Shown here piece after piece: positions 2,185-46,164 of a stretch of 64,000 nucleotides of DNA. The notes below the pieces were generated by a model. The model was not told the DNA's origin. It ran no database searches and worked only from the letters and a program-made list of their open reading frames with translations. Origin of the DNA: Pseudomonadota bacterium (GTDB taxonomy: Bacteria > Pseudomonadota > Gammaproteobacteria > Burkholderiales > Burkholderiaceae_C); assembly GCA_040387325.1 (NCBI GenBank), contig JAZKDY010000076.1, forward strand, positions 6,438 through 70,437, read 5' to 3'. Both the position numbers and the translations under genes were made by a program. Position 1 is the first letter of the stretch. Every line of letters begins with the position of its first letter.

Positions 2185-2258
2185 GTCTGTCTTTCGTGAA
2201 TGTGTGAGTCAGTACCGTGTGTACAGACTGCATGTTCACGGGCCGCAGTCGTTTGGTC

Positions 2259-2274
2259 CGTGCGCCAAAACACA
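2259..2274 (-). promoter_or_regulatory. Crp/Fnr-type box 1 (ompA operon)
   Basis: TGTGTT-TTGG-CGCACG then GAC; GAACAT 21 nt downstream (2237-2232). Confidence 0.65.
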
Positions 2275-2335
2275 TAAACGCGGACATATGCAGCGCTGTT
2301 GTGTGGTCGCCACCGCGGCGCCACATACCGACCTA

Positions 2336-2351
2336 CGTGCGCCAAGACACA
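2336..2351 (+). promoter_or_regulatory. Crp/Fnr-type box 2 (DUF4398-OmpA operon)
   Basis: CGTGCG-CCAA-GACACA then GAC; TACAAC 21 nt downstream (2373-2378). Confidence 0.65.
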
Positions 2352-2433
2352 GACGCGAATGCACGCCTGTTTTACAACCATGGCGTCACCACCGCATTCG
2401 CGATTGACAAACACTTTACGAAGAAAGCTGAAT

Positions 2434-2829
2434 ATGAAACTGTCCAAACCAATGCCCAACCAATGGTTGCTAACCGTTGCCTGTGTTGTCGGAGCCCTTG
2501 CCCTTGTTGCGTGTAGCAGCAGCCAGAAGGCGCCAGCCACCGCGGATGTCGCGGTATCGCAGGCTGCAGTAGAGAACGCCAGCAGCGCAGACGGAACCGA
2601 ATTCGCACCGGCAGAAATGCGTGCTGCACGCGACAAGCTGGCTGCTGCCAAACAAGCGCTGGCCGCCAAGGATTACAAGGCCGCCTCCGACTATGCCAAC
2701 CAGGCCCAGGCCGACGCGAAGCTTGCCCAGGCCAAGGCCGGCTCGGCCAAGGCACAAGCCGTATCCGCCACGTTGCAGGAAGACATCCGTGTTTTGCGCA
2801 GCGAGCTTGACCGCGCTGGCACCCAGTAA
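2434..2829 (+). CDS. DUF4398 domain lipoprotein
   Basis: Lipobox LVAC; FAPAEMRAARDKL...QAQADAKLA pattern; typical partner of the downstream OmpA protein. Confidence 0.85.
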   Translation: MKLSKPMPNQWLLTVACVVGALALVACSSSQKAPATADVAVSQAAVENASSADGTEFAPAEMRAARDKLAAAKQALAAKDYKAASDYANQAQADAKLAQAKAGSAKAQAVSATLQEDIRVLRSELDRAGTQ

Positions 2830-2850
2830 TTTCCATCCAAGGCATTCACC

Positions 2851-3783
2851 ATGAAAACAAACCGTATCTACATCCTGCTGGCAGCCACCGTCGTGTTGCT
2901 CAGCGCCTGCGCCAGTGGCCCCAAGACCACCAGCCTGCTTGAACAGGTCCGCGTGGAGTACGCGCAGGCCCAGGGCAATCCCAAAGTCGCCACCCATGCA
3001 GCGCTCGAAATGCAAGCGGCAACCGACGCATTGGCAAAGGCCGAAGCGGCAGCAAAGGGCCGGGAGAGCCTGGAAACCGTGGACAAGCTGGCATACCTGA
3101 CCAAGCAAAAGATTGCACTGGCCAACGAAGTGGCCAGCAGGAAATCGTCTGAGGCGGACATCGCCAGCGCCGCAGCCATCCGTGACCAGGTGCGCCTGGA
3201 CCAGCGCACGCTGGAGGCCAACCAGGCCCGCATGAAAGCCGAAGACGCTGAACGTGCAGCCCAGGCCGCACGTGACGCCGCCGCCGCCGCCACACAGCAG
3301 AAAAACCAGGCCCAGGCCAATGAATCCGAAGCGCAGCGACTGGCAGCCGAGGCATTGGCACGCAACCAGCAACTGGAAGCCCAATTGGCAGAGATGGCCG
3401 CGAAAAAGACCGAGCGTGGTCTCATCATTACCTTGGGTGATGTGCTGTTTTCCGTCGACCAGGCCCGGCTGAATGCCGAGGGCATTCGTATGGTCCAGCG
3501 TCTGGCCACCGTATTGCAGCAGAACCCCAAACGTTCCGTGCTGGTAGAGGGTTTTACCGATAGCACCGGCAGCACACAACACAACCAGGACCTGTCCGAG
3601 CGCCGCGCCGCGGCCGTGCGTGATGCGTTGCTGGAGCTTGGTGTATCCCGTGGACAGATTGCGGTGCGGGGTTACGGTGAAGCGTATCCCGCTGCACCCA
3701 ATGACACCGCGCAGAACCGCCAGCTGAATCGGCGCGTGGAGATCGTGCTGTCTGACGAACGCGGTGTGATTACTCCACGTTAA
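2851..3783 (+). CDS. DUF4398-coiled coil-OmpA_C lipoprotein
   Basis: Lipobox LSAC; TERGLIITLGDVLF, EGFTDSTGS, NRRVEI motifs. Confidence 0.9.
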   Translation: MKTNRIYILLAATVVLLSACASGPKTTSLLEQVRVEYAQAQGNPKVATHAALEMQAATDALAKAEAAAKGRESLETVDKLAYLTKQKIALANEVASRKSSEADIASAAAIRDQVRLDQRTLEANQARMKAEDAERAAQAARDAAAAATQQKNQAQANESEAQRLAAEALARNQQLEAQLAEMAAKKTERGLIITLGDVLFSVDQARLNAEGIRMVQRLATVLQQNPKRSVLVEGFTDSTGSTQHNQDLSERRAAAVRDALLELGVSRGQIAVRGYGEAYPAAPNDTAQNRQLNRRVEIVLSDERGVITPR

Positions 3784-3920
3784 GCACCCTGTCGCACTGA
3801 ACGGAGCCTCCCATGAAAGCCAATACCCATACCGCCCGATCCTGGAGTACCGCGTCCTTCGGTGGCAATACGGACACCTCCCCGGTGGAGTTGTCCTCCC
3901 TGGGGGACCACCTGGGTACC

Positions 3921-3936
3921 TGTACGACCCCGCACA
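3921..3936 (+). promoter_or_regulatory. Crp/Fnr-type box 3 (glucan synthase)
   Basis: TGTACG-ACCC-CGCACA, good palindrome; no convincing -10 at 21 nt. Confidence 0.55.
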
Positions 3937-4055: not shown

Positions 4056-4058
4056 GCC

Positions 4059-12532: not shown

Positions 12533-12548
12533 GGTGCGCTAGCACACC
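12533..12548 (+). promoter_or_regulatory. Crp/Fnr-type box 4 (BON lipoprotein)
   Basis: GGTGCG-CTAG-CACACC then GAC; TATAGT 21 nt downstream (12570-12575). Confidence 0.75.
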
Positions 12549-13000: not shown

Positions 13001-13651
13001 TTATTGTGGTCTTTTCACCAGAAACTGCGACAACTCTTCCAGCACGGTCCGTACTGCATGGTTGGCGGCGACCACGCCCGCGCGGGGGTCATCGCTGCTG
13101 GCCGGGACTTGCGCATCAAAAGCGCGCCACGCGACCACCTTGCGTGTCTTCTCTTCGACCAGGTAGACCCGCAGCGTGAAATGCACGTTGCTGGGCCGGG
13201 TCTGAAAATCCTGCTGCAGCCGCACGATCTCGGTGTCCAGCCGCAGTTCACCACCGGCAGAACCCGGTGTCATCACCACTGCACGGAATGCACCCGTGTG
13301 TTCTATCGCTGCCACCATCAACGGCCCGAGCATGCGTGCGGGTGTATCGATCCATTCGCTGTGCGCAAAATACTCCAGCTTGTGGGGCTCGCGCATGTAG
13401 ATGATGCGCTGGCTGTCAAAGCCCGAGGCCGCACGCACCGGGCTGATGATCAGCGTTGGGGCACCGGCAGGCACGGCGCGCGCTGTATGGGGCGTTGTTG
13501 CAGCCGGACCTGCATACTCCAGCGCATAAAAGCTCGGCGGCGTGCTGGCCTTGGGCTGCAGCACGCTGCAGGCGCTTAGGGCCAGGACGGCCAGGCACAC
13601 GCCCGCCAGTCGTGCGCGTGATGCAGGGGTTTTGTGGTGTGGTGTTGTCAC
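13001..13651 (-). CDS. ABC-type transport auxiliary lipoprotein (PqiC-like)
   Basis: Lipobox LSAC; GFDSQRIIY, EWIDTPARML; last gene of the MCE operon. Confidence 0.85.
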   Translation of the reverse strand: MTTPHHKTPASRARLAGVCLAVLALSACSVLQPKASTPPSFYALEYAGPAATTPHTARAVPAGAPTLIISPVRAASGFDSQRIIYMREPHKLEYFAHSEWIDTPARMLGPLMVAAIEHTGAFRAVVMTPGSAGGELRLDTEIVRLQQDFQTRPSNVHFTLRVYLVEEKTRKVVAWRAFDAQVPASSDDPRAGVVAANHAVRTVLEELSQFLVKRPQ

Positions 13652-14505
13652 GGTTTTGCTCCCTGTTCTCCGGGACCCGTGGGAACCGGTGTGCGACCAA
13701 ATAACAGCCCACTCGGGTCGCGGGTGGTCTGCTCGCTCAGCCGCCGCAAGGAATTGCTCAGGCTGCCCAGTTCACCCAGCAGGCGTTCGACCTCGGGCAG
13801 TGTCTCCGTGCCCAGGCGCTGGACGCCGACACCCAGGCCATCGGCCGCCTTGGATGCACTGGCGCCCGCCAGGGAGAGGTCATTCCCCATCTTGCCGACG
13901 GAATCTGCGCTGCGGCCCACGCGGTCGATCAGGGGGCCGAGTTTGGCGGTTGCCTGTGCCGTGTTGTTCAGGATGCTGGAGAACGATGCCTGGTTCTCCG
14001 GGCTCAGGATGGCATTGATGTTGTTCGAGGTGCTGTCCAGCTTGCCCAGCACATTCGTGAGCACGTTCTCCAGCCGGGCGCTCAGCGAAGGTTTGGTCTG
14101 GATAACGGGGTAACGGTTGGGGGCAATGGTGCGCAACGCGGGTGAGTCCCGTGTGCCACCGCTGAGCTCTACATAGGTAATGCCGGTCAGGCCCTGTGTC
14201 TTCAGCACCGCAATGGTGTCTTCCTTGATCGGGGTGCCGTCTTCAATGGCAAAGCTCAGGATCACGCGTTCGGGGGTGGCGCGGTCCAGGTCGATGCGCT
14301 GCACCTTGCCAACATCCACGCCGTTGTATTTGACCGGTGCATTCAGGTTGAGGCCCGCAACCGACTCATTGGCTATCGCGAGGAAGGTGTCGTAGTTCTT
14401 CTGCCAGGCGCCGCCAGAGGCCAGCCACAGTGCTCCGGCGATGAGGACGGCGCCCAGGCCCAGAACAAAGGCGCCCACAATGGAAAAGCTTACTTTGGTT
14501 TCCAT
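13648..14505 (-). CDS. MCE/MlaD family protein with helical extension
   Basis: N-terminal TM; SVAGLNLNAPVKYNGVDVGKV, QGLTGITYVELSGG. Confidence 0.9.
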   Translation of the reverse strand: METKVSFSIVGAFVLGLGAVLIAGALWLASGGAWQKNYDTFLAIANESVAGLNLNAPVKYNGVDVGKVQRIDLDRATPERVILSFAIEDGTPIKEDTIAVLKTQGLTGITYVELSGGTRDSPALRTIAPNRYPVIQTKPSLSARLENVLTNVLGKLDSTSNNINAILSPENQASFSSILNNTAQATAKLGPLIDRVGRSADSVGKMGNDLSLAGASASKAADGLGVGVQRLGTETLPEVERLLGELGSLSNSLRRLSEQTTRDPSGLLFGRTPVPTGPGEQGAKP

Positions 14506-15314
14506 ACGGTCTCCTGGGGTGGGGTTGGGGGTTGGGCCTGTTGTTGCGCGCTGCGTGCACGTGGGCCTTCAAAAAAGGGCCGTACCAGGGGTTTGTCGGA
14601 GTCGGCGAGTTCCTGCATGGAGCCTATGGCCTGCACCGTGCCATCACCCAGCACGGCCACGCGGTCGGCCACCTGCCACAGCAGGTCCAGGTCGTGGGTG
14701 ATCATGACGATGGTCAGGCCATACAGGTCGCGCAGCGAACGCACCAGCTCGTCCACCCCTGCCGCACTGTCGGGGTCCAGGCCCGCGGTCGGCTCGTCCA
14801 GGAACAGCAGTTCGGGGTCCAGCGCCAGGGCGCGCGCCAGGGATGCGCGTTTCATCATGCCGCCACTCAGCTCGGACGGGTACTGGTCTGCCACTTCCGG
14901 CCGCAGGCCGGCCATGGACAGTTTCCAGTGCGCGATTTCGTCAATCAGGCTGTCGCCCAGATCCGTGTGTTCGCGCAGCGGCAGGCCAATGTTTTCGAGC
15001 ACGGTCAACGCGCCAAACAGACCACCGTGCTGGAACATCACGCCCCAGCGCTGGCGCAAGGCCAGGGCGTCCGCGGCGCCTATGTTGTTCAGCGGTATGC
15101 CCAGTACCCGAACGGTGCCCTGCGTGGGTTTCTGCAGCAGGATCATTTCGCGCAGCAGTGTGGATTTGCCGGTACCACTGCCACCGATCACTGCAAAAAT
15201 CTCGGCACGGCGCACCGACAGGTCCACGCCGTCGTGTACCACGTGGTCGCCAAAACGTGTCACCACCTGTTCCATCTCTATGACGGCTTCATCGGTGTCG
15301 GGTGCGCTGTCCAT
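14490..15314 (-). CDS. MlaF-like ABC ATPase
   Basis: GGSGTGKS, LSGGM, LFLDEPTAGLD, ITHD. Confidence 0.9.
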   Translation of the reverse strand: MDSAPDTDEAVIEMEQVVTRFGDHVVHDGVDLSVRRAEIFAVIGGSGTGKSTLLREMILLQKPTQGTVRVLGIPLNNIGAADALALRQRWGVMFQHGGLFGALTVLENIGLPLREHTDLGDSLIDEIAHWKLSMAGLRPEVADQYPSELSGGMMKRASLARALALDPELLFLDEPTAGLDPDSAAGVDELVRSLRDLYGLTIVMITHDLDLLWQVADRVAVLGDGTVQAIGSMQELADSDKPLVRPFFEGPRARSAQQQAQPPTPPQETVWKPK

Positions 15315-15315
15315 G

Positions 15316-16455
15316 TCACAGGTCCAGGATGCTGAAGGCAATGGAGAACAGGGCGTCTGCCACGATCACCAGGAAGATGGACTGCACCACGCTGCGGGTG
15401 GTTTGTTGCCCCACGCTGTCGGCGCCCCCGCGGGTGCGAAAGCCCTGGAAACACCCTACCAGGCTGATGATGATGGCAAACACCGGCGCCTTGGCTATGC
15501 CCACCATGTAAGACGTGACACTGACCGCCTTGGCCATGCGGTCCAGGAATTCGTTGTAGCTGACATCCAGCTGGGTCTGCGCCATCAACATGCCACCGGC
15601 AACGCCCAGCACATCGGCAAACACCGTGAGCAGGGGCAGGGCAATGACCAGGGCAATGACCTTGGGCACCACCAGCAACTCCAGTGGCTCTATGCCCAGG
15701 GTGCGCATGGCATCGATCTCTTCCGTCACGGCCATGGTGCCGATCTGGGCCGCAAAGGCCGAGCCTGAACGCCCGGCAATGGTGATGGCGGTGATCAGCG
15801 GTGCAAACTCGCGCAGCATGGACAGGCCCACCAGGTCTGCCACAAAGATGTTGGCACCGTACTGCCGCAACTGGTCGGCCCCCTGGTAGGCCACCACAAT
15901 GCCCAGCAAAAGCGACAACAGACCGACGATGGGCAGCGCATCAAAACCCGCCCTGCGGATGTTGAACAGAATGGGGCGCCAGCGCATGCGCGATGGGTGG
16001 ATCACGCAGTTGGAAAAAGCCAGCGCACATTCACCCACAAAACCCAGCATGGCAAAAAACTGCTCCCAGGCCGCACCGGCGTGGCGACCCACGCGCTCCA
16101 ACAGGTGTTGTGGCGCTGCCCTGGGCGCAGCGGCTGGTGCACGGGCCTGTGCCTCTTCATGGGTGGTGACAGCTTGCAGCAGGCGCGCGAGGTCGGGGTG
16201 CAAACCCTGCAATGTGATCTGGGCGCCGTCTGCGCGCAATCGGTTCACCAGCTTGTGCAGCACCCAGGCGCCCGCGGTGTCCAGTTGGGCAATGCCTGTT
16301 GCATCAAGCTGTGTTGGCGCGCTGCGGTCAGCCTGCAGGGCATCCAGTTGGTTCGCGATACCACCCAGGCCCCGCGCAGTCCACGCCCCACCCAAGGTCA
16401 GGGTGTCGGGGCTCGACGGTGTGGCGCTGGCACGCGGCTCGCTGAAGTGCTTCAT
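15316..16455 (-). CDS. STAS-MlaE fusion permease
   Basis: N-terminal LDTAGAW STAS-like domain; LREFAPLITA, AGRSGSAFAAQIGTM, EEIDAM; start placed at MKHFSEP, downstream of the predicted -10. Confidence 0.9.
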   Translation of the reverse strand: MKHFSEPRASATPSSPDTLTLGGAWTARGLGGIANQLDALQADRSAPTQLDATGIAQLDTAGAWVLHKLVNRLRADGAQITLQGLHPDLARLLQAVTTHEEAQARAPAAAPRAAPQHLLERVGRHAGAAWEQFFAMLGFVGECALAFSNCVIHPSRMRWRPILFNIRRAGFDALPIVGLLSLLLGIVVAYQGADQLRQYGANIFVADLVGLSMLREFAPLITAITIAGRSGSAFAAQIGTMAVTEEIDAMRTLGIEPLELLVVPKVIALVIALPLLTVFADVLGVAGGMLMAQTQLDVSYNEFLDRMAKAVSVTSYMVGIAKAPVFAIIISLVGCFQGFRTRGGADSVGQQTTRSVVQSIFLVIVADALFSIAFSILDL

Positions 16456-16493: not shown

Positions 16494-16509
16494 TGTTCGC
16501 GAGCGAACA
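16494..16509. promoter_or_regulatory. Crp/Fnr-type box 5 (bidirectional)
   Basis: Perfect arms TGTTCG-CGAG-CGAACA; CAAGGT 21 nt away on + (16531-16536) and TAAGCT 21 nt away on - (16472-16467). Confidence 0.8.
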
Positions 16510-17186: not shown

Positions 17187-17936
17187 CTACGCGCTGCGCT
17201 TGTGCACGTCGCTGAGCAGGCGCTCCAGTTCCTTCTTGACCACGCCATAACATTCACAGGCACTGGCTTCCAGGCCCTGGCGTTCCAGCACCGCGATGTG
17301 GCCGCGCCGGTAGCGTATGTAGCCAGCCGTCTGCAGATTGCCGGCGGCTTCGGTCACGCTTTCGCGGCGCACCCCCAGCATGCTGGCCACCAGTTCCTGG
17401 GTCATCACCAGCTCCCGCGCAGGCACGCGGTCCATGGTCAACAGCAGCCAGCGGCACAGTTGCTGTTCCACGGAGTGGTGGCGGTTGCACACGGCAGACT
17501 GGGCCATCTGTGTCATGAGGGCCTGGGTGTAGCGCAACAGCAGGCGCTGCAGCGCGCCAGCACGGTTGAATTCACTTTGCAGCACATGGCGGTCCAGCCG
17601 ATAGGCGTGTCCCGCTGTCTGTACCACAGCCGAGCTGGGGGTGGTGTCGCCGCCCATGAACAGCGAAATGCCTACCACCCCTTCGTTGCCCACACCAGCC
17701 GTCTCGGCCGATGCGCCGGTCTCGGTCACATAGTGCAAAGACACGATGGAGGTGGTGGGGAAGAATGCGTGGCGCAGTTGTGTTCCGGGTTCGTAGAGCA
17801 TCTGGCCCAGTGCCATGGGCACCAGTTCCAGGTGCTGTGCAAACAGGTCAAAGTCTGCCTGCGGCAGGGCTGCCAGCAGGTGGTTGTGTTGGGGGCTATG
17901 CAGGAGGGTCATGTCTTTGGTGCGGGTTGTCGGCAT
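17187..17936 (-). CDS. Crp/Fnr family transcriptional regulator
   Basis: NHLLAALP N-terminus, cNMP-like beta-roll, HTH MTQELVASMLGVRRESVTEAA, C-terminal CECY. Confidence 0.9.
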   Translation of the reverse strand: MPTTRTKDMTLLHSPQHNHLLAALPQADFDLFAQHLELVPMALGQMLYEPGTQLRHAFFPTTSIVSLHYVTETGASAETAGVGNEGVVGISLFMGGDTTPSSAVVQTAGHAYRLDRHVLQSEFNRAGALQRLLLRYTQALMTQMAQSAVCNRHHSVEQQLCRWLLLTMDRVPARELVMTQELVASMLGVRRESVTEAAGNLQTAGYIRYRRGHIAVLERQGLEASACECYGVVKKELERLLSDVHKRSA

Positions 17937-17937: not shown

Positions 17938-18759
17938 TCAGGCACCCGTCACGATTTCAACGCCTATGCCCCGGTAACCCAGGAAACGGCTGCTGCGGCT
18001 GAACATGGGCTCGCCGCTGACGCGGTACTGCTGCTCTGAGCCGTCCGGCAGGTGCCGGTGGAAGATCAAATCCAGAAAGGGTTCACGCGCTGCAATGGTT
18101 GCGCGCAGGGCTTCACGATCGCCGGTATCCCAACCGTCGGTCTGTGCAGTTTTTGAAATACCCTTGTGCGTGTCGACCTGCAGGCCCAGCATTTCCAGCA
18201 CCGGGCCTGAGACCTTGGTGAAGCTGCCGTTTTCGTCCTGCTCCCAGTACCAGTCTGACGCCAGCTCGGTCAGGCTGCGGTAACGCGCCTCACTCTCGCG
18301 CAACTCGGCGGTGCGCTCCAGCACCGTTTGTTCCAGCACCTTGTTGAAGTCGGCCAGTTTTTTGTACAGCAGGCGCACCTCCAGCATATTGTGGATTCGG
18401 GTCTTGACCTCGACCAGGTCAAACGGCTTGCTGACAAAGTCCTTGGCACCGGCTTGCAGTGCACGCAGCTTGTGGCCCGGCTGGGCCGTGAGCACAATAA
18501 CCGGCAGGTAGGGGTCCATCGTGTTGGTCTTGAGGCTTTCCATGACCTGGAAGCCATCCATCACCGGCATCTGCAGGTCCAGCAAAATCAGGTCGTAGGC
18601 GTTCTTGCGGTGCAGTGCACACACCTCTTCAGGCACCAGGGTGGAGGTGACGCCGGTGTAACCGGCGGACTGCAGCAGTTGCTCCAGCAATTGCACATTG
18701 GATTCCTGGTCATCAACGATCAGTATCCTGGCGTTGAGAATGTCGGCAGATTGGATCAT
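17938..18759 (-). CDS. Response regulator, REC-coiled coil-PAS, no output domain
   Basis: ILIVDD, LLDLQMP, LTA, SKPFD; then RYRSLTELASDWYWEQD PAS. Confidence 0.9.
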   Translation of the reverse strand: MIQSADILNARILIVDDQESNVQLLEQLLQSAGYTGVTSTLVPEEVCALHRKNAYDLILLDLQMPVMDGFQVMESLKTNTMDPYLPVIVLTAQPGHKLRALQAGAKDFVSKPFDLVEVKTRIHNMLEVRLLYKKLADFNKVLEQTVLERTAELRESEARYRSLTELASDWYWEQDENGSFTKVSGPVLEMLGLQVDTHKGISKTAQTDGWDTGDREALRATIAAREPFLDLIFHRHLPDGSEQQYRVSGEPMFSRSSRFLGYRGIGVEIVTGA

Positions 18760-18822
18760 GGGGTTATTCCTCGGGATGATTGGGTAGGTTGGTGCAGGGT
18801 TCTTGCGCGATGGGGAAATGTT

Positions 18823-20178
18823 TCATGGCAGGCTTTGTTCTGGGGTGCCTGCATGGGCCAGCTCTATCCAGAACACACTGCCCACACCAATGGTGCTGCG
18901 CGCGCTAATGGTGCCGCCCATCAATTCCACCAGGCGTTTGCTCAGTGCCAGGCCTACACCGGTACCTTCGTCAGAGCCGCTGTCGCGGCCCAGGCGGTTG
19001 AAGGGCTGGAACAGGTGGCTGATCTTGTCGGCCGACAGGCCATAACCGCCGTCTATGACACTCACACGGATACGCTGGTCTGCCTGCACACTGCACGACA
19101 CCTCCACCGTGCCACCGGTCCGGTTGTACTGGATGGCGTTGGACAGCAGGTGTACCAGGACCTGGTGGAGCCGGGATTTGTCAGCAGACACTTTCAACGC
19201 GCCATGGGGTTGCTCACACACCATGCGGATATTGCGGGCCTGCGCCGCGGGGGCCACGCTGGCCTGGCTGGAGGTCAGAACTTCGCACAATGCGACTGGT
19301 TCGGATTGCAGCTGCAATCGCCCGGACTCGATTGCCGTCAGGTCCAGAATCTCGCCGATCAAATCCAAGAGGTACCAGCCCGCACGCAGGATACGGTCTA
19401 TGCTGCTTTTTTGCGTGGCAGTGGGTGCGGGGTCGCCCAGGTCCATCAGCTGGGCAAAGCCAAGAATGGCGTTCAGTGGTGAGCGCAACTCGTGGCTCAT
19501 ATTGGACAAAAAGTCGGATTTGGCCAGGCTGGCTTTTTCGGCCACGGCCTGTGCCACCTGCAGCGCCTGGTTTTTTTCCAGCAGGATCGCGTCCATGGCT
19601 TTGCGTGCACTGATGTCGGTCAGCACCAGACGCTGGACCGGTGCATGGTCCGCTTCGTGCGCCAGGCTGATCTGCACGTGGGCCCAGAACACCGCACTGT
19701 CGCGCCGGACCAGCTGCAGCTCACAGCCCTGGGGCAGCCCGGATTCAAAGAGGGCTTTGCGGCAGGTGTAATACGTGTCCTGGTCCGACCGGGCAATCAG
19801 GCTGCTCATGGGTTTGTTGACGACATCGCTGCGGGCCATGTTCAGCAAAGCGGCGGCGGTGAAGTTCACCTCCAGAACCAGGCCCTGCTCGCTGATGGTG
19901 CAATACCCCACGGGTGCCAGGTCGTACAGGTCAAAGTACCGGGCGCGTGCGGCATCCAGCGCGGCCTGGGTTTGGCGCAGTTCGTCGTTCTGCATCTCCA
20001 GCTCAACCTGGTGCACTTGCAGTTCGTGCAGCATGTGCCGCATGGCTTCCGCCGACAGCTCTTGCAGATGGGTTGGTGTCGGGCTGGCTTTGGCGTGGAT
20101 AAGATCTTCGGCCCGCTCACGCAGTCCGTGTCTTGGCCGTTCACTGTGCGGGGCCATGGCGTGCTTTCGGTTGGTCAT
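18823..20178 (-). CDS. PAS sensor histidine kinase
   Basis: HELQVHQVELEMQNDEL coil, PAS, SHELRSPLNAI H-box, N/G1/F/G2 boxes; start codon uncertain (20157-20220). Confidence 0.85.
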   Translation of the reverse strand: MTNRKHAMAPHSERPRHGLRERAEDLIHAKASPTPTHLQELSAEAMRHMLHELQVHQVELEMQNDELRQTQAALDAARARYFDLYDLAPVGYCTISEQGLVLEVNFTAAALLNMARSDVVNKPMSSLIARSDQDTYYTCRKALFESGLPQGCELQLVRRDSAVFWAHVQISLAHEADHAPVQRLVLTDISARKAMDAILLEKNQALQVAQAVAEKASLAKSDFLSNMSHELRSPLNAILGFAQLMDLGDPAPTATQKSSIDRILRAGWYLLDLIGEILDLTAIESGRLQLQSEPVALCEVLTSSQASVAPAAQARNIRMVCEQPHGALKVSADKSRLHQVLVHLLSNAIQYNRTGGTVEVSCSVQADQRIRVSVIDGGYGLSADKISHLFQPFNRLGRDSGSDEGTGVGLALSKRLVELMGGTISARSTIGVGSVFWIELAHAGTPEQSLP

Positions 20179-23152
20179 CCGCCGCGGGGTCTGCAGTGCG
20201 CTCGGTGGTGGCGATGGCATACATTTCGCCGGCGTTGTCGGTCAGCGCGGTGGAGGTGATGGAGACCTCGATCTCGGCCCCCTCCTTGGTCAGACGCCTG
20301 GTGCGGTAGGGCTCCAGCGTCTTGGCGTCCCCCAACTGTGCCACCTTGGAGGCCGCGTTGTCCTGCAGTGCCTTGGGCAGGCGGTCGCGCACATTCAGGG
20401 TCAGCGCCTCGGCCTCGGTCCAGCCGTACATGCGGGTGGCACCCGGGTTCCACGCGATGGTGCGGCCCTGCAAATCCTGCACGGTGATGGCGTCGTGGGC
20501 GTCGCGCACCACCACCGCCAGCCGCAACAGCGCGTTGGCCTTGTGCAGGTCCTCGCGCACCCGCACGATCTCGGTGATGTCGACAAAGGTGATCACTGCC
20601 CCCTCAATCACATTGTCCAGCGTGCGGTAGGGCAGTATGCGCATGGTGTACGACCTGCCCTCCACGGTCTTTACGGTGACCTCTTTGGGGACCAGTGTGG
20701 ACAGTACGCTTTGTGCATCGGCATTCAGCCGGTCATACCCGACCAGGTTGGACATGATGTGGCCCATGGGGCGCCCCACATCGCTCAGTATCAGATTGAC
20801 GATGCGGGTTGCCGCCGGTGTAAAACGCAGGATGCGCAGATCGTGGTCCACAAAGATGGTGCCAATGCCCGTGCCCGCCAGCAGGTTGTTCATGTCATTG
20901 TTGGCGCGGGACAGGTCGCCCACCTTGGTCTGCAGTTCGGTGTTGACGGTGGACAACTCTTCGTTGATGGACTGCAGCTCTTCCTTGGAGGTCTCCAACT
21001 CCTCGTTGGTGGACTGCAGTTCTTCATTGACCGACTGCATCTCTTCGTTGGATGACTTCAGCTCCTCGTTGGAGGTCTCCAGCTCTTCGTTGGCCGCGTT
21101 CAAATAGTCTTCCTTGGCCTGCAGCTCTTCCCTCAGCTCGGCAATGTGGGCATGGATGTCCTGTGTCTGCTGGTCTGTACCAGCTGGCAGCGCCGTGGGC
21201 GCAGCATGCGCCGGTGCAATGCCGGTGGCGGGCGCTTCCTCCAGCATCACCAGGTACAGGCGGGACTCCAGCGCGTTGGCAGGTCCGGCCTCTACGGGCA
21301 CCACGCCCAGGTTGACCAGGGTGTGGTGGCCGTTGGTCCTGACACGCAAGCCGGACACATGGACCGGGGTCTTGACGGTGCCTGCCTTGTGCAGGCTGGT
21401 GGTCAGGTCGTGGCGCAAACCCTCGCGCGCCATCTTCAGGATGTTGTTGATACCGGCCTCACCCGGGGCGGGCTCCAGGTACATGCCCACGCGCCCATGC
21501 AGGTACAGAATGTCGCCCTGGCTGTTGACCAGGGCAGCCGCCTTGGCCACATGGCGCAACAGGGTCTGTTCGGTCAGCTCGCGCAAGGACAGCTTGGGCG
21601 GAGACGTGTTTTTGCCAGGGCTCAATTGCAGGGCTCCATTCTTATGGGTAGGGGGCAACAGGAAACGGCCCAGGGCCGCACGTTGCGCGCCCTGAAAATC
21701 TTCCTTGCGCTGGTAGACCTTGGATTTGCGGTCCAGCGGCATGTACAGATCACTGAAATCACCCACGGTTTCCGAGGTACCCAGAAACAACAGGCCACCG
21801 GGATTGAGCGCGTAGTGGAACAGCGAGATCACCTTCTTCTGCAGCTCCGCGCCCAGATAAATCAGCAGATTGCGGCAACTGACCAGGTCCAGCTTGGAGA
21901 ACGGAGGGTCCTTGATCAGGTCCTGCTCGGAGAACACCAGCAGGTCGCGGATGACCTTGTGCACGCGGTAGGTGTCGCCCTCGGGTTCGCGGGTGAAGAA
22001 ACGCGCCAGGCGCTCGGGGCTGATGTCTTCTGCAATGCTGGCCGGGTAAATACCGGCACGGGCCACGGCGATGGCACGGCTGTCGATGTCAGTGGCAAAC
22101 ACCTGGATCTTGTAACTCTGCTTGAGCATCTCCACCCGCTCCTGCAGCAGGATAGCGATGGAGTAGGCCTCTTCGCCGGTAGAGCAGCCCGTGGTCCAGG
22201 CGCGCACCACGCCGCCCGCAGGCTTGCCGCTGAACAGCTTGGGTATGACCAGTGTCTCCAGTGCGGCAAAGGCCTCGGGGTCGCGGAAGAAATTGGTGAC
22301 ACCTATCAGCAGGTCGCGGAACAGCGCCTCTACCTCGGCCGGAGTCTGCTGCAGGTACTTGGCATACGCATCCATGCCGTCGATCTGGTGCACCGCCATG
22401 CGACGGTCAATGCGCCGGTAGATGGTGCTGGGCTTGTACTGGGAGAAGTCGTGCCCGGTCTGGGTGCGCAGCAGGATGAATATCCGCTTCAAGGCCCCCT
22501 GGGACTGGGGCGCCGCCGTGGCGGCAGCACGTGGCAGTTTGCCCAGCGCATGGCTGACATAGGCGATGAGCTGGCCGGGCATTTCCGCCGGAGGCAGCAC
22601 GTAGTCCACCAGGCCGGTGGCCATCGCGTGGTGCGGCATGGAGTCAAATTCAGACGAGGCCGCAGTCTGCGCCATGGCCATGCCGCCGCCGTCCTTGATG
22701 GCCCGCACACCCAGGGTGCCGTCACTGCCCGTGCCCGATAGCACGATGCCGATGGCCCGCTCCTGCTGGTCCTGCGCCAGCGAGGTGAACAGAAAATCAA
22801 TCGGCAGGCGGTGGCCGCGCGGTGCGGTGGGCTCCAGCAACTGCAGCGCTCCGTTCAGGAAGGCCATGTCGCGGTTGGGCGGGATGATGTACACACAGTT
22901 GGCCTGCACCAGCATGCCGTCCGCCACCTCGAACACCGGCATGCGGGTGGTGCGCTGTACCAGTTCGGTCAGCAGGCTGCCGTGGTCCGGCGCCAGGTGC
23001 TGCACCAGCACAAAGGCCATGCCCGGCTCACCCACGGCCGGCATGCCGGAGAAAAAGGCCGCAAACGCTGCCAGGCCACCTGCGGACGCGCCGATACCCA
23101 CAATCGGGAAGGCGGCGCGTGGTTCCGCGTCTGGCGTGGCCGAGGGTATCAA
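20141..23152 (-). CDS. CheB-CheR-PAS-coiled coil-PAS-PAS fusion protein
   Basis: GASAGG/QHL/SGTGSDG esterase triad; GVTNFFRD, GCSTGEE, CRNLLIY methyltransferase; NEEL heptads; TTG start with AGGAG RBS. Confidence 0.9.
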   Translation of the reverse strand: MIPSATPDAEPRAAFPIVGIGASAGGLAAFAAFFSGMPAVGEPGMAFVLVQHLAPDHGSLLTELVQRTTRMPVFEVADGMLVQANCVYIIPPNRDMAFLNGALQLLEPTAPRGHRLPIDFLFTSLAQDQQERAIGIVLSGTGSDGTLGVRAIKDGGGMAMAQTAASSEFDSMPHHAMATGLVDYVLPPAEMPGQLIAYVSHALGKLPRAAATAAPQSQGALKRIFILLRTQTGHDFSQYKPSTIYRRIDRRMAVHQIDGMDAYAKYLQQTPAEVEALFRDLLIGVTNFFRDPEAFAALETLVIPKLFSGKPAGGVVRAWTTGCSTGEEAYSIAILLQERVEMLKQSYKIQVFATDIDSRAIAVARAGIYPASIAEDISPERLARFFTREPEGDTYRVHKVIRDLLVFSEQDLIKDPPFSKLDLVSCRNLLIYLGAELQKKVISLFHYALNPGGLLFLGTSETVGDFSDLYMPLDRKSKVYQRKEDFQGAQRAALGRFLLPPTHKNGALQLSPGKNTSPPKLSLRELTEQTLLRHVAKAAALVNSQGDILYLHGRVGMYLEPAPGEAGINNILKMAREGLRHDLTTSLHKAGTVKTPVHVSGLRVRTNGHHTLVNLGVVPVEAGPANALESRLYLVMLEEAPATGIAPAHAAPTALPAGTDQQTQDIHAHIAELREELQAKEDYLNAANEELETSNEELKSSNEEMQSVNEELQSTNEELETSKEELQSINEELSTVNTELQTKVGDLSRANNDMNNLLAGTGIGTIFVDHDLRILRFTPAATRIVNLILSDVGRPMGHIMSNLVGYDRLNADAQSVLSTLVPKEVTVKTVEGRSYTMRILPYRTLDNVIEGAVITFVDITEIVRVREDLHKANALLRLAVVVRDAHDAITVQDLQGRTIAWNPGATRMYGWTEAEALTLNVRDRLPKALQDNAASKVAQLGDAKTLEPYRTRRLTKEGAEIEVSITSTALTDNAGEMYAIATTERTADPAADDQPKARHGPAQ

Positions 23153-23158
23153 ATACTA

Positions 23159-23212: not shown

Positions 23213-23216
23213 TTCC

Positions 23217-26200: not shown

Positions 26201-26360
26201 ACATCAGATCGTCCGCGGCCGTGATGATGACGCGCGAGTCGCGGCGGTGGTCGGAGGCCTGTTCGATCTGGTGGTAAGTCCAGAACGTGAACACCATACC
26301 CAGCGACAGGAGCACTAACACGGCGGCAAGCCAGACAAATGTTTTATGGGTGGTTTTCAA
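23217..26360 (-). CDS. CHASE3-PAS-PAS-PAS hybrid histidine kinase with REC
   Basis: TM, AETSQRGYALTG (CHASE3), three PAS, SHELRSPLNAI, C-terminal YVEDN...MDINLP...TKP. Confidence 0.9.
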   Translation of the reverse strand: MKTTHKTFVWLAAVLVLLSLGMVFTFWTYHQIEQASDHRRDSRVIITAADDLMSTLTVAETSQRGYALTGGETYLEPYQGVRDNIKAHLAVLRQLTASAPAQKHVDTIAPLLDAKLAEMDKTIALRRNSDAVGALALINSDEGKRLMDGIRQEMRGIVQIETDIQAQHNAGFDRSMRRLFATIIGMGVLALLLALYFAYSSYRAAQQRLKNLVHAETRHLLDEQISTNTLLQTSNDALQDSTQKLTVTLNSIGDAVIATDAQARVTLLNPVAQDMTGWTQAQAEGRPVNEVFHIVNKADRHVATIPVARALAHGTLQGLANHTVLIARDGREFDIADSCAPVRDLQGQVVGAVLVFRNVTAEYAAQQTLRDSAARVQTILNTVGDGIVTLQAQGGIIESANPAIEQMFGYSAAELTGKAFGFLIPELDQEQHHVALEHYGVSPEARALGQGREVMGFRKDGSFFPLEIAVSEMSLGGQLYFTGILRDISTRKQAEEALRKAGALQSAIFSSANFSCIATDALGVIQIFNVGAERMLGYTAAEMVNQVTPADISDPEELIARAMALAAEHETDIAPGFEALAYKASRGMEDIYELSYIRKDGTRLPALVSVTALRSNDQTIIGYLLIGTDNTARKLAEAERFQLDKSLQIKAIELEAARSTADKANLAKSEFLSSMSHELRSPLNAILGFAQLMDSGVPPPTATQRASIEQILKAGWYLLELINEILDLALIESGKLSLSMEPVSLQEVLRDCQTMMEPQARRRGIQMRFPNFKAPCYVQADRTRVKQVFVNLLTNAIKYNRQDGSLDVTFRPAGKTRMHISVRDTGEGLSAKKLAQLFEPFNRLGQEDSDEEGTGIGLVVSKRLVELMNGSIGAHSTVGVGSDFWVELNLADPQSLVLDPDEELALLPAPAQTDRNVRTLLYVEDNEANMELVAQLISRRPDIRLLRAEDGVRGIAMARTHLPDVILMDINLPGISGLQALGLLHDDPMTTHIPVLALSANAMPRDVEKGLEAGFFRYLTKPIKIAEFMLALDQGLELAQAAPEGSA

Positions 26361-26490: not shown

Positions 26491-26506
26491 TGTTCGGTGG
26501 CGCACC
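26491..26506 (-). promoter_or_regulatory. Crp/Fnr-type box 6 (signalling operon, autoregulatory)
   Basis: GGTGCG-CCAC-CGAACA then GAG; TACGCT 21 nt downstream (26469-26464). Confidence 0.75.
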
Positions 26507-26612: not shown

Positions 26613-26628
26613 GGTGTGTTCGCGCACA
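26613..26628 (+). promoter_or_regulatory. Crp/Fnr-type box 7 (OsmB-like)
   Basis: GGTGTG-TTCG-CGCACA then GAC; AAGAAT 21 nt downstream (26650-26655). Confidence 0.7.
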
Positions 26629-28836: not shown

Positions 28837-28852
28837 GGTGCGCTGCATCACT
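28837..28852 (-). promoter_or_regulatory. Crp/Fnr-type box 8 (GGDEF-EAL)
   Basis: AGTGAT-GCAG-CGCACC then GAC; TATGGT 21 nt downstream (28815-28810). Confidence 0.65.
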
Positions 28853-28873: not shown

Positions 28874-28889
28874 TGTTCGCCAACGAACC
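28874..28889 (+). promoter_or_regulatory. Crp/Fnr-type box 9 (crystallin gene)
   Basis: TGTTCG-CCAA-CGAACC then GAC; TAGTCT 21 nt downstream (28911-28916). Confidence 0.8.
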
Positions 28890-30155: not shown

Positions 30156-30171
30156 CGTACGCTTGCGCACG
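30156..30171 (+). promoter_or_regulatory. Crp/Fnr-type box 10 (cardiolipin synthase)
   Basis: CGTACG-CTTG-CGCACG then GAC; TAAGCT 20 nt downstream (30192-30197). Confidence 0.75.
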
Positions 30172-34190: not shown

Positions 34191-34206
34191 AGTGCGCGGG
34201 CGCACG
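34191..34206 (-). promoter_or_regulatory. Crp/Fnr-type box 11 (rcnB-osmC operon)
   Basis: CGTGCG-CCCG-CGCACT then GAC; TATCTT 21 nt downstream (34169-34164). Confidence 0.8.
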
Positions 34207-34233: not shown

Positions 34234-34249
34234 TGTATGCCATCGCACC
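34234..34249 (+). promoter_or_regulatory. Crp/Fnr-type box 12 (csbD)
   Basis: TGTATG-CCAT-CGCACC then GAT; TAGCAT 21 nt downstream (34271-34276). Confidence 0.7.
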
Positions 34250-40402: not shown

Positions 40403-40418
40403 TGTGCTGTGGCACACG
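40403..40418 (+). promoter_or_regulatory. Crp/Fnr-type box 13 (hypothetical secreted protein)
   Basis: TGTGCT-GTGG-CACACG then GAC; CATGAT 21 nt downstream (40440-40445). Confidence 0.55.
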
Positions 40419-45185: not shown

Positions 45186-45670
45186 GCGACCACGCTGCCT
45201 TTTTCGGCCAGCAACTCCTCTTTGCGGGCCTCGATTTCAGCGCCCAACTCCACCATGTCCAGTTTGCTGGCATTGGCTTTGGGAAACATTTCGGCGTGTT
45301 CTTCCTTGACATGGTGTTCCACGTACTCAGACAGAACCTTGATCTTGGCATCGAACATTTCGCCGTCGGGCTCCACACCTTCCACCTGTGCGATCAGCGA
45401 TTTCAGCGTGGCGTGTTCGACGGTGGCTTCGGGGATCAGTTCCTTGTCCTTGAGTGCCTTTTTGACCGCGGGGTAGAAGATCTCTTCTTCGACCTGGGCG
45501 TGCACACTCAGCTCCAGGCAGATTTGTGCGACCAGGTCTTTCTTTTTGTCCTTGGAGCGGGCTTTCTCGTATTCGGCAAACAAGCCGCTGACCAGTTTAT
45601 GGTCTGCACGCAGCAGTTCGGTGGCGCCTTTGGCTTTGGCTGCGCGGGGCTTGGAGGTGGCACTGGTCAT
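45182..45670 (-). CDS. Hemerythrin/HHE domain protein
   Basis: ADH, HAQVEEEIFYP, EH, HHVKEEH; AAGGA RBS before MTSAT; ATGA overlap with katE. Confidence 0.88.
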   Translation of the reverse strand: MTSATSKPRAAKAKGATELLRADHKLVSGLFAEYEKARSKDKKKDLVAQICLELSVHAQVEEEIFYPAVKKALKDKELIPEATVEHATLKSLIAQVEGVEPDGEMFDAKIKVLSEYVEHHVKEEHAEMFPKANASKLDMVELGAEIEARKEELLAEKGSVVA

Positions 45671-45728
45671 GGTCGGTTTCCTTTCTTTGGTACATATCGG
45701 GTTGGTAAAGGCAGTTACCGGCCGGGCG

Positions 45729-45884
45729 CTAGCCAAAAACCATGCGCCAGTTCCCGATGCAGGCCGCTGCCAGCAAGCTGGCGAACACGCAAAGGGCCAG
45801 GTAAGCAAGGCTTGCGCGGACTGCGCTGGTGCGACTGGATGGACCGGTTGCAATGGCGTGTTTGGGTTGCAGGTTGGTGTTCAT
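45729..45884 (-). CDS. Putative 51-aa single-TM small protein (not in the ORF track)
   Basis: MNTNLQPKHAIATGPSSRTSAVRASLAYLALCVFASLLAAACIGNWRMVFG*; fills the gap between the box-14 promoter and hemerythrin. Confidence 0.45.
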   Translation of the reverse strand: MNTNLQPKHAIATGPSSRTSAVRASLAYLALCVFASLLAAACIGNWRMVFG

Positions 45885-45963
45885 GGGGGCATCCATCGGG
45901 TTAGAGGGAAGGGCACAACTGTCCGGTAACAGCCCGACGGTAAATCAGGCCCCCGGTGTCCTC

Positions 45964-45979
45964 TGTTCGTTGTCGTACA
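45964..45979 (-). promoter_or_regulatory. Crp/Fnr-type box 14 (hemerythrin-katE)
   Basis: TGTACG-ACAA-CGAACA then GAG; TACCGT 21 nt downstream (45942-45937). Confidence 0.8.
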
Positions 45980-46034
45980 CACAGCAAGCGGCAGCATGCA
46001 ACGCAACGTAACTGCGGGCAAACGGCCGCCATGC

Positions 46035-46050
46035 CGTGTGATGGCGCACA
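46035..46050 (+). promoter_or_regulatory. Crp/Fnr-type box 15
   Basis: CGTGTG-ATGG-CGCACA then GAT; GATGAT 21 nt downstream (46072-46077). Confidence 0.65.
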
Positions 46051-46164
46051 GATGCGGGCTGCCTGCGCAAAGATGATGCAGCAGCCACTTCAACAGAGCA
46101 GTACATAACTGCAAGAACAGCTGAAGGCGGTGAATTCATCAACCTTTTTTTAAGTGAGCCGACT

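What the first reader, a model, noticed from the sequence alone, without database searches (positions are those of the whole stretch)
2232..46077. A 15-site non-canonical CRP/FNR-geometry box at -41.5 defines a general-stress regulon
Seen: a 16-bp palindrome nGT(G/T/A)CG-N4-CG(C/A/T)ACn starts at 2259, 2336, 3921, 12533, 16494, 26491, 26613, 28837, 28874, 30156, 34191, 34234, 40403, 45964 and 46035. All copies are intergenic and upstream of island units. GT (pos 2-3) and AC (pos 14-15) are invariant. In the direction of transcription the box is usually followed by GA(C/T/G), and a -10-like hexamer (e.g. TATAGT, TAGTCT, TAGCAT, TATCTT, TACCGT, TACGCT, TATGGT, TAAGCT, CATGAT) starts exactly 21 nt later at 13 boxes (14 promoters, since 16494 works both ways). 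The spacer is 20 nt at 30156 and the -10 is poor at 3921. I found no copy in intergenic DNA beyond 46.7 kb. Established: CRP (TGTGA-N6-TCACA) and FNR (TTGAT-N4-ATCAA) class II sites centre at -41.5. Here 8+21 nt to the -12 base gives -41.5, and the trailing GAC falls on positions 3-5 of a sigma70 -35 hexamer. Targets (OsmY/BON, OsmB, OsmC, CsbD, KatE, ElaB/YqjD, Cls) are RpoS, SigB or EcfG regulon members in other bacteria. Inference: a dedicated Crp/Fnr activator acting with sigma70, rather than an alternative sigma factor, runs the general stress response here. I do not know of a description of this regulon but cannot search.
Basis: partly seen in the sequence, partly recalled or inferred. 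Interest (0 to 1): 0.93.

Follow-up and report, generated by a model that had tools for sequence, protein, structure and literature searches.

The report
Crp-type stress regulon promoter boxes
A 16-bp palindrome sits at one fixed distance from the -10 element of about 14 promoters in a Rhodoferax stress-gene cluster. It is very probably the docking site of an unstudied Crp/Fnr-type activator encoded in the cluster, but the genome also encodes RpoS, so this activator does not replace the sigma-factor stress response.

Summary
All 15 boxes are at the stated coordinates. A matrix built only from sites in other genomes finds 2463 boxes per Mb in the window's intergenic DNA, against 83 per Mb in other intergenic DNA and 11 per Mb in coding DNA.

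Genome-wide, 28 of 35 gene-directed boxes followed by GA carry the -11 A and -7 T at exactly one offset. That places the box centre at -41.5 and GAC at positions 3-5 of a -35 hexamer with a 17-nt spacer.

Twelve orthologous promoters in two congeners keep the box (80% identity), GAC (93%) and -10 (70%). The flanks drift to 37-51%.

Around 80 homologues of the regulator (17187-17936) in named Beta- and Gammaproteobacteria there are 139 boxes, against 6 in a control. The peak lies just upstream of the regulator gene.

The evidence fits a Crp/Fnr class II activator that drives its own operon. However, pcm-nlpD-rpoS is present, split across two contigs, so "rather than an alternative sigma factor" fails. 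Site 3921 is doubtful. Three paralogues share the recognition helix.

I found no published description. This scan has found the same regulator-box pair several times before on other DNA.

The parts
2259..2274 (-). Box, then GAC and -10 GAACAT, directed at the OmpA-like gene 1045-2184
   Evidence: box, GAC and -10 are identical in G023 at the orthologous promoter
2336..2351 (+). Box, then GAC and TACAAC (no T at -7), directed at DUF4398 gene 2434-2829 and DUF4398-OmpA gene 2851-3783
   Evidence: conserved in G021 and G023
3921..3936 (+). Doubtful box upstream of the 2795-aa gene 4116-12503
   Evidence: Lies inside the 80-aa ORF 3813-4055, is followed by AAC and has no -10 at the canonical offset. 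No box of 12 bits or more in the matching G021 intergenic region.
12533..12548 (+). Box, then GAC and TATAGT, directed at BON gene 12618-12932
   Evidence: TATAGT identical in three genomes
16494..16509 (.). Perfect palindrome used in both directions: GAA and CAAGGT towards the double-BON gene 16583-17161 (+), AAC and TAAGCT towards the STAS-MlaE/MlaF/MlaD/PqiC-like operon 16455..13001 (-)
17187..17936 (-). Crp/Fnr-family regulator with recognition helix GVRRESVTEAA; the proposed binder of the box
   Evidence: Pfam cNMP_binding plus HTH_Crp_2; profile hits to solved Crp/Fnr proteins; boxes flank homologues in 62 of 80 loci
17938..26360 (-). Sensory genes co-oriented and tightly packed with the regulator: CHASE3-PAS hybrid kinase (23217-26360), CheB-CheR-PAS fusion (20141-23152), PAS kinase (18823-20178), REC-PAS (17938-18759)
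   Evidence: a REC-PAS homologue lies within 6 kb of the regulator in 46 of 80 loci
26491..26506 (-). Box, then GAG and TACGCT, before the five-gene sensory/regulator operon (proposed positive autoregulation)
26613..26628 (+). Box, then GAC and AAGAAT, directed at the OsmB-like lipoprotein gene 26728-26952
28837..28852 (-). Weak box (good promoter-proximal half only), then GAC and TATGGT, directed at PAS-GGDEF-EAL gene 27021-28814
28874..28889 (+). Box, then GAC and TAGTCT, directed at the beta/gamma-crystallin plus glycine-zipper gene 28964-30064
30156..30171 (+). Box and GAC, with -10 TAAGCT one nt closer than usual, directed at the PLD/cardiolipin-synthase-like gene (ORF 30112-31665; the true start is probably 30217 or 30265)
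34191..34206 (-). Box, then GAC and TATCTT, directed at the RcnB-like gene (33701-34159), OsmC (33240-33680) and FMN reductase (32142-33212)
34234..34249 (+). Box, then GAT and TAGCAT, directed at CsbD gene 34342-34542
40403..40418 (+). Box, then GAC and CATGAT, directed at a secreted protein of unknown family (probable start 40489, end 41388)
45964..45979 (-). Box, then GAG and TACCGT, directed at a possible 55-aa ORF (45729-45896), hemerythrin (45182-45670) and large catalase KatE (42840-45185)
46035..46050 (+). Box, then GAT and GATGAT, directed at the glycine-zipper protein gene 46165-46650

Best explanation
The box (consensus TGTGCGCTAGCGCACA, i.e. TGTGCG-N4-CGCACA) is the operator of a distinct subfamily of Crp/Fnr regulators. 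The subfamily is marked by the recognition helix GVRRE(G/S)VTEAA, and the window's gene 17187-17936 belongs to it.

Inferred mechanism: a dimer bound at -49..-34 (centre -41.5) activates transcription in the class II manner at promoters that keep only a GAC remnant of the -35 hexamer, a 17-nt spacer and a weak nAnnnT -10. The holoenzyme carries a group-1 or group-2 sigma (RpoD or RpoS; undecided).

Regulon: about 14 transcription units in the window and about 20 more elsewhere in the genome. They encode envelope and general-stress proteins: BON/OsmY-like, OsmB-like, OsmC, CsbD, KatE, hemerythrin, Cls-like PLD, OmpA/DUF4398, an Mla/Pqi-like transporter, GGDEF-EAL, TspO, DUF2383 and PRC-barrel.

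Autoregulation: one box precedes the five-gene operon that ends in the regulator gene, so the system probably amplifies itself.

Input (inferred): the co-transcribed kinases and the output-less REC-PAS protein, not cAMP.

Shown here: the motif, its enrichment, its fixed spacing, its conservation, and its linkage to the regulator family.
Inferred: binding, activation rather than repression, the sigma factor used, and the signal.
For: - Enrichment: 2463 boxes per Mb in window intergenic DNA, against 83 per Mb in other intergenic DNA and 11 per Mb in coding DNA, using a matrix built only from other genomes.
- Fixed architecture: 28 of 35 GA-flanked, gene-directed boxes have the -11 A and -7 T at exactly one offset.
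- The G and C of GAC are asymmetric (upstream flank TC in 3 of 28), so they belong to the promoter rather than the palindrome.
- Footprint: at 12 orthologous promoters in congeners G021 and G023, identity is box 0.80, GAC 0.93 and -10 0.70, against upstream 0.37, spacer 0.45 and downstream 0.42-0.51.
- Linkage to the regulator: 20 of 30 small loci around homologues in relatives hold a box of 15 bits or more.
- In 80 named loci (833 kb) there are 139 such boxes against 6 in a reversed control, and 106 against 0 with the full architecture. They occur in 62 of 80 loci, with the peak in the 500 nt upstream of the regulator gene.
- The recognition helix is conserved across these homologues.
- The only other Crp/Fnr proteins found in this genome carry the FNR-type helix LETVSR.
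- Family membership: Pfam cNMP_binding and HTH_Crp_2; profile hits to GlxR, NtcA, DNR and Mycobacterium CRP.
- In the alignment to GlxR, the positions of the cAMP-contacting Glu and Arg hold Ile and Thr.
Against: - There is no experimental datum: no mapped transcription start, no binding assay and no expression data.
- Three paralogues in this genome share the VRRE helix (window, C72:12151-12873, C160:5427-6098), so which one binds which box is unknown.
- Several window boxes are weak with the independent matrix: 28837 scores 1 bit, and 40403, 2336, 34191 and 2259 score 9-10 bits. Site 3921 is doubtful.
- A site overlapping the -35 region could also repress.
- RpoS is encoded and may be required at these promoters.
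Confidence: 0.72

Rival explanations
1. The promoters are RpoS-dependent, and the Crp-type protein is only a co-activator or modulator. In that case the general stress response here is still run by the alternative sigma factor.
For: - rpoS is present in the pcm-nlpD-rpoS context.
- The target types (osmY-like BON, osmB, osmC, katE, csbD) are RpoS regulon members in E. coli (established knowledge).
- The -10 keeps only A-11 and T-7, with a degenerate first base, which both RpoD and RpoS tolerate.
Against: - The same box, GA and -10 architecture occurs around regulator homologues in two complete genomes (G001, G037) where only an RpoD-length match was found with the RpoS model.
- C at -13 is not clearly enriched (11 of 28), and the discriminator is G-rich rather than A/T-rich.
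- The regulator's distribution is independent of RpoS among 41 relatives.
Confidence: 0.2
2. The protein is a repressor that occludes the -35 region of these promoters. The units would be de-repressed under stress rather than activated.
For: - The site overlaps the -35 hexamer by 2 bp.
- Crp/Fnr proteins such as FNR and CRP repress some promoters (established knowledge).
Against: - The spacing is rigid to a single nucleotide in 28 of 35 promoters, there is no full -35 hexamer, and the -10 elements are weak. This is the signature of activator-dependent class II promoters; repressor sites usually vary in position.
- A single symmetric site serves two divergent promoters at the same distance.
Confidence: 0.07
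3. The palindrome is bound by an unrelated factor, or is a compositional or chance feature, and its neighbourhood with the Crp/Fnr gene is coincidental.
For: - The 16-mer is GC-rich, and many matches also occur in coding DNA (45 at 14 bits or more).
- A strict core pattern is only about 3-fold more frequent, relative to a reversed control, in relatives with the regulator than in those without (51:69 against 18:81).
Against: - Intergenic density is 9-30 times higher than in coding or other intergenic DNA.
- There are 139 boxes against 6 in the control around regulator homologues from many genera.
- The footprint is conserved while the flanks have diverged.
- The geometry is that of CRP-family sites.
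Confidence: 0.03

Closest known systems
cAMP-CRP (CAP) at class II promoters of Escherichia coli, e.g. galP1 (site TGTGA-N6-TCACA centred at -41.5)
   Same: - A 16-bp palindrome with GTG-N8-CAC geometry.
- Centre 41.5 bp upstream of the inferred start, overlapping a degenerate -35.
- Two-domain protein with a cNMP-type barrel and an HTH_Crp domain.
- The Arg-Glu pair of the recognition helix is kept (RRE here, SRE in GlxR and CRP).
   Different: - Positions 5-6 of the half-site are CG, not A-N.
- The residue aligned with the second DNA-contacting Lys/Arg of the CRP/GlxR helix is Glu.
- The cAMP-contacting Glu and Arg are replaced.
- E. coli CAP matches the family profile only at E 0.007.
- The gene sits in a kinase/REC-PAS operon.
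- The regulon holds stress and envelope genes, not catabolic genes.
NtcA of cyanobacteria (GTA-N8-TAC, class II at -41.5)
   Same: - Invariant GT...AC outer core with the same spacing.
- Activator-dependent promoters with a -10 but no -35.
- NtcA is among the best solved-structure matches (E 3e-10).
   Different: - NtcA senses 2-oxoglutarate and controls nitrogen assimilation.
- Different inner bases, different phylum, and no linked phosphorelay.
SdrP of Thermus thermophilus (stationary-phase Crp/Fnr regulator; recalled from memory, not tested here)
   Same: A Crp/Fnr-family activator of stress and stationary-phase genes that does not need cAMP.
   Different: - No sequence or site comparison was made here.
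- Thermus Crp-family structures match the profile only weakly (2zcw at E 2e-6).
FixLJ-FixK cascade of rhizobia and Burkholderia
   Same: A two-component system lies upstream of a Crp/Fnr-type factor that then activates a regulon from class II sites.
   Different: - FixJ is a DNA-binding response regulator that transcribes fixK.
- Here the response regulator ends in a PAS domain with no DNA-binding output and is co-transcribed with the Crp gene.
- The box is TGTGCG-N4-CGCACA, not TTGA-N6-TCAA.
RpoS general stress regulon of Gamma- and Betaproteobacteria
   Same: Overlapping gene content: osmY-like BON, osmB, osmC, katE, csbD.
   Different: - Control is by a promoter-proximal transcription-factor box, not by sigma selectivity.
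- RpoS is encoded separately in the same genome.

Membership tests
Crp/Fnr superfamily (the regulator 17187-17936) | N-terminal cyclic-nucleotide-binding-type beta-barrel domain | tested here: met
   PF00027 scores 30.2 bits against a cut-off of 27.5, residues 44-124
Crp/Fnr superfamily (the regulator 17187-17936) | C-terminal Crp-type winged helix-turn-helix | tested here: met
   PF13545 scores 50.5 bits against a cut-off of 27. The family profile matches solved Crp/Fnr proteins (3dv8, GlxR, NtcA, DNR) at E 1e-11 to 1e-8.
cAMP receptor protein proper (CRP/GlxR/Vfr type) | Phosphate-binding cassette with the cAMP-contacting Glu and Arg | tested here: not met
   In the profile alignment to GlxR, the Glu of GELS aligns with Ile and the Arg of RTS aligns with Thr. 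The single-sequence search of solved structures found nothing at E 0.001 or better.
FNR type | N-terminal cysteine cluster for a 4Fe-4S centre, and recognition helix E--SR | tested here: not met
   No Cys in the first 40 residues (translation). The helix is RRESVTE, not ETVSR. True FNR-type helices occur in three other genes of the genome.
Class II activator-dependent promoter | Activator site centred near -41.5 relative to the transcription start | tested here: inconclusive
   Met relative to the -10 element: -11 A lies exactly 23 nt after the box end in 28 of 35 promoters. Transcription starts are not mapped, and no RNA run holds the locus.
Class II activator-dependent promoter | Transcription depends on the bound activator | not testable with these tools
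   Needs deletion or box-mutation reporter assays, or in vitro transcription
General stress regulon replacing an alternative sigma factor | No RpoS-type sigma factor in the genome | tested here: not met
   pcm-nlpD-rpoS lies at the C153 end and the C107 start. RpoS models are the best hits for both halves, at 184 and 188 bits.
General stress regulon | Induction by several unrelated stresses | not testable with these tools
   Only gene content supports the label

The most novel reading that the evidence does not exclude
Many Beta- and Gammaproteobacteria would possess a second general stress response that does not need RpoS. It would be run by a cAMP-independent Crp-family activator whose activity is set by a dedicated phosphorelay (hybrid kinase, then an output-less REC-PAS protein) and which amplifies itself from its own box. 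In this reading, a Crp-fold protein serves as the DNA-binding output of a two-component system.
Probability: 0.35. Interest if true: 0.8.

Novelty: new variant of a known kind. Interest (0 to 1): 0.62.

Why it matters
Control of envelope and general-stress genes in Betaproteobacteria is mostly extrapolated from E. coli RpoS.

Here a conserved regulator-operator pair links osmY-, osmB-, osmC-, csbD- and katE-type genes into one predicted regulon. At least 599 regulator homologues were found in the species-representative genome collection. They span Rhodoferax, Massilia, Undibacterium, Cupriavidus, Thiobacillus, Gallionella, Accumulibacter, methanotrophs and others.

The predicted binding site, promoter geometry and autoregulatory loop are all directly testable.

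The pair would give a handle on stress and dormancy physiology in environmentally and technically important bacteria, such as those of wastewater, iron oxidation and methane oxidation. It would also add a new DNA specificity and a probable non-nucleotide input to the Crp/Fnr family.

Tried and rejected
1. RNA evidence for transcription starts. The look-up of sequencing runs listed no RNA holder, only DNA metagenomes.
2. Complex prediction of the regulator with the REC-PAS protein. The verdict was 'no answer' (score 0.27, mark 0.32). This is no evidence either way.
3. Strict core pattern GTDCGNTANCGHAC counted in 41 relatives.
   - Counts are low. Fifteen genomes with the regulator hold 51, against 69 in the control; 25 genomes without it hold 18, against 81.
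   - The trend goes the right way but is weak, and relatives are not independent samples.
   - Strict patterns were also poor discriminators in the own genome.
4. Single-sequence search of solved structures found nothing. The family profile was needed.
5. Literature. Nine full-text searches covered motif strings, Crp/Fnr combined with stress-gene names, and general stress response with hybrid kinase.
   - No description of this box or regulator turned up.
   - The one string hit (PMC5431877) concerns a LysR-type site.
   - The phrase 'Crp Fnr' does not match 'Crp/Fnr' in that tool, so three of the searches were weaker than intended.
   - Subscription journals and RegPrecise/CollecTF could not be searched.
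6. Idea that GAC is simply the outer part of a 20-22 bp palindrome. Rejected for G and C, because the upstream flank is TC in only 3 of 28 promoters. The A may be partly symmetric, since T is found at -2 in 18 of 28.
7. Idea that a canonical CRP binds the box. No RETVGR-type protein was found in this assembly, which is 86.7% complete.
Full report
**1. The observation**

The strict written consensus GTDCG-N4-CGHAC is met by 7 of them, against 1.0 expected by chance; none of 100 shuffles reaches 7. The geometry is that of CRP sites: GTG-N8-CAC, here TGTGCG-N4-CGCACA.

The window lies on contig C76 of a 4.47-Mb, 186-contig assembly. It has 61% G+C and is 86.7% complete. Close homologues of its proteins carry Rhodoferax names.

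I made crude gene calls for the whole genome with a codon log-odds model (4077 genes, 91% coding). I then scanned the genome with a symmetric matrix built from the 15 sites.
- At 14 bits or more there are 39 intergenic and 45 coding hits, i.e. 97 against 11 per Mb.
- To avoid circularity I rebuilt the matrix from 139 sites found only in other genomes.
- With that matrix, at 12 bits or more, the window's intergenic DNA (1-46.7 kb) holds 2463 boxes per Mb. The rest of the genome's intergenic DNA holds 83 per Mb and coding DNA 11 per Mb.

**2. Promoter architecture**

Among box orientations that point at a gene start within 350 nt, 35 of 73 are followed by GA. Among orientations that do not point at a gene start, 9 of 51 are.

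Of those 35, 28 have A-N3-T beginning exactly 22 nt after the box end (0-based). No other offset collects more than 3. This puts the -11 A 23 nt after the box end. The box then spans -49..-34, its centre is at -41.5, and the start is predicted about 34 nt after the box end.

The -10 is weak: T at -12 in 12 of 28, A at -11 and T at -7 by selection, followed by a G-rich discriminator.

GAC occupies positions 3-5 of a -35 hexamer with a 17-nt spacer. The upstream flank is the palindromic partner TC in only 3 of 28 promoters. The G and C therefore belong to the promoter and not to the palindrome. The A may be partly symmetric, since T is found at -2 in 18 of 28.

In the window, 13 of 16 promoter orientations fit exactly. 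The exceptions are:
- 2336: TACAAC, with no T at -7. The hexamer is nevertheless kept at this promoter in both congeners (TACAAA in G021, TACAAC in G023).
- 30156: the -10 is one nt closer.
- 3921: it lies inside a plausible 80-aa ORF, is followed by AAC and has no -10. No box of 12 bits or more lies in the matching region of G021.

**3. Targets**

Pfam and NCBIfam confirm the following:
- an OmpA-like protein;
- DUF4398 and DUF4398-OmpA;
- two BON proteins;
- an STAS-MlaE/MlaF/MlaD/PqiC-like transporter;
- an OsmB-like lipoprotein;
- PAS-GGDEF-EAL;
- a crystallin/glycine-zipper protein;
- a PLD/Cls-like protein;
- an RcnB-like protein, OsmC and an FMN reductase;
- CsbD;
- hemerythrin and a large catalase.

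Two further targets are a secreted protein and a glycine-zipper protein of no known family. ElaB/YqjD was not confirmed among the proteins scanned.

About 20 promoters with the same architecture lie on other contigs. Their genes include TspO, DUF2383, a PRC-barrel protein, DUF6328, DUF5670, BrkB/YihY, DUF4440, a zinc peptidase, a transglutaminase-like protein and an FNR-type regulator. The window therefore holds roughly half of the regulon, not all of it.

**4. The regulator**

Gene 17187-17936 (- strand) encodes a 249-aa protein with cNMP_binding and HTH_Crp_2 domains. A profile of 22 homologues matches solved Crp/Fnr proteins: 3dv8, GlxR, NtcA, DNR and Mycobacterium CRP at E 1e-11 to 1e-7, and E. 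coli CAP only at 0.007. The single sequence matched nothing.

The recognition helix is GVRRESVTEAA. In the alignment to GlxR:
- RRE aligns with SRE;
- the second DNA-contacting Lys/Arg position holds Glu;
- the cAMP-contacting Glu and Arg positions hold Ile and Thr.

It is therefore a member of the superfamily, but neither a CRP proper nor an FNR. It has no N-terminal Cys cluster.

It is the last gene of a packed five-gene unit:
- CHASE3-PAS hybrid kinase;
- CheB-CheR-PAS fusion;
- PAS kinase;
- REC-PAS with no output domain;
- the Crp-type regulator.

Box 26491, in reverse orientation, precedes this unit, so positive autoregulation is likely.

Two paralogues elsewhere in the genome (C72, C160) carry the same VRRE helix. 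The other Crp/Fnr proteins found have the FNR helix LETVSR.

**5. Evidence from other genomes**

Sixteen of 41 relatives (G000 included) have a homologue at E 1e-30 or better. Twenty of 30 small loci around these homologues hold a box of 15 bits or more, often 100-150 nt before the homologue's own start.

The whole island is syntenic in congeners G021 and G023. At 12 orthologous promoters, ungapped identity is as follows:

| Segment | Identity |
|---|---|
| 40 nt upstream of the box | 0.37 |
| Box | 0.80 |
| GAC | 0.93 |
| Spacer | 0.45 |
| -10 hexamer | 0.70 |
| Downstream | 0.42-0.51 |

This is a clear phylogenetic footprint.

A scan of the species-representative genome collection found at least 599 relatives. 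The best 80 come from Rhodoferax, Propionivibrio, Thiobacillus, Sulfuriferula, Undibacterium, Massilia, Duganella, Cupriavidus, Paraburkholderia, Accumulibacter, Gallionella, Sideroxydans, Nitrosospira, Methylobacter, Crenothrix, Arenimonas and one Acidobacteriota MAG.

In these 833 kb:
- there are 139 boxes of 15 bits or more, against 6 in the reversed-sequence control;
- 106 sites have the full box, GA and -10 architecture, against 0 in the control;
- boxes occur in 62 of 80 loci, with the peak in the 500 nt upstream of the regulator;
- the consensus is TGTGCGCTAGCGCACA.

A REC-PAS homologue lies within 6 kb in 46 of 80 loci, and directly upstream of the regulator in 22 of 76.

**6. The sigma-factor claim**

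The RpoS model has no hit over its cut-off in this assembly, but it has two half hits at contig ends. Contig C153 ends with pcm, nlpD and the first 170 codons of a sigma gene. Contig C107 begins with the overlapping remainder. RpoS models are the best NCBIfam hit for both halves, at 184 and 188 bits. RpoS is therefore encoded, and the gene is merely split by an assembly break.

Among the 41 genomes, the regulator occurs with an RpoS-like match (for example G010, G021, G023, G027, G033) and without one (for example G001, G037, G038). Many RpoS-positive genomes lack the regulator. The two are therefore independent, not alternatives.

The same promoter architecture is present in complete genomes G001 and G037, where only an RpoD-length match was found. 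This argues that RpoS is not required for the architecture as such. Which sigma factor is used here remains open.

**7. Mechanism and rivals**

The best explanation is class II activation by a dimer of the VRRE-type Crp/Fnr protein, with positive autoregulation and input from the linked phosphorelay rather than from cAMP. My confidence is 0.72 for binding plus activation. The input step is the weakest inference.

Rivals:
- RpoS-dependent promoters with the protein as co-activator (0.2);
- repression (0.07);
- an unrelated factor or chance (0.03).

**8. Novelty**

Nine full-text searches found no description of the box or the regulator. Subscription journals and curated motif databases could not be searched.

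This scan has already reported the same regulator-box pair on other DNA several times. Those notes are unchecked AI notes. I tested the shared claims independently here and they hold.

The mechanism is textbook class II activation. What is new is the DNA specificity, the apparent non-nucleotide input, and the stress and envelope regulon. I therefore class it as a new variant of a known kind.

Noticed in passing
G000 contig C153 end (L002:1324-1833) and contig C107 start (L001:1-582): rpoS is split by an assembly break. The two contig ends overlap by 18 codons, and the classical pcm-nlpD genes lie upstream. No RpoD-length sigma gene was found in this 86.7%-complete assembly.
   Followed up: yes
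L012:2443-3141, L013:2241-2891, L016:782-1426, L017:730-1416 (other genomes): Many genomes carry, next to the VRRE-type regulator, a second paralogue about 40% identical with helix GVRRVGVTKAA. This Glu-to-Val change may give it a different half-site preference.
   Followed up: no
window 17187-17936 (alignment A1): Cys150, His154, Cys227 and Cys229 (motifs CNRHH and CECY) are invariant or nearly so across 22 homologues. This suggests a metal or redox site in place of a nucleotide pocket.
   Followed up: partly
window 16455-16460, 28803-28814, 34157-34159: Three predicted transcription starts fall at or just inside the longest-ORF start codons of STAS-mlaE, GGDEF-EAL and the RcnB-like gene. Either these mRNAs are leaderless or the true starts lie further downstream.
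   Followed up: no
contig C76 positions 4429 and 6223 (2008 and 214 nt left of the window start) and 100999 (window coordinate 94562): Further boxes with GA, and at the last two with the canonical -10, show that the cluster extends beyond the window's left edge.
   Followed up: partly
G000:C20:38419-39291: An FNR-type regulator gene (helix LETVSR) is preceded at 101 nt by a 17-bit box followed by GAG, but with no -10 at the canonical offset. This may be cross-regulation between two Crp/Fnr systems.
   Followed up: no
window 4116-12503: This 2795-aa ORF has no Pfam hit in its first 1000 residues. Homologues (37-53% identity) lie next to regulator homologues in G001, G033 and G037, so it may be a conserved regulon member even though its own box (3921) is doubtful here.
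   Followed up: partly
window 3813-4055: An 80-aa ORF with a Shine-Dalgarno sequence and a C-terminal hydrophobic segment overlaps box 3921. It may be a real small membrane protein.
   Followed up: no
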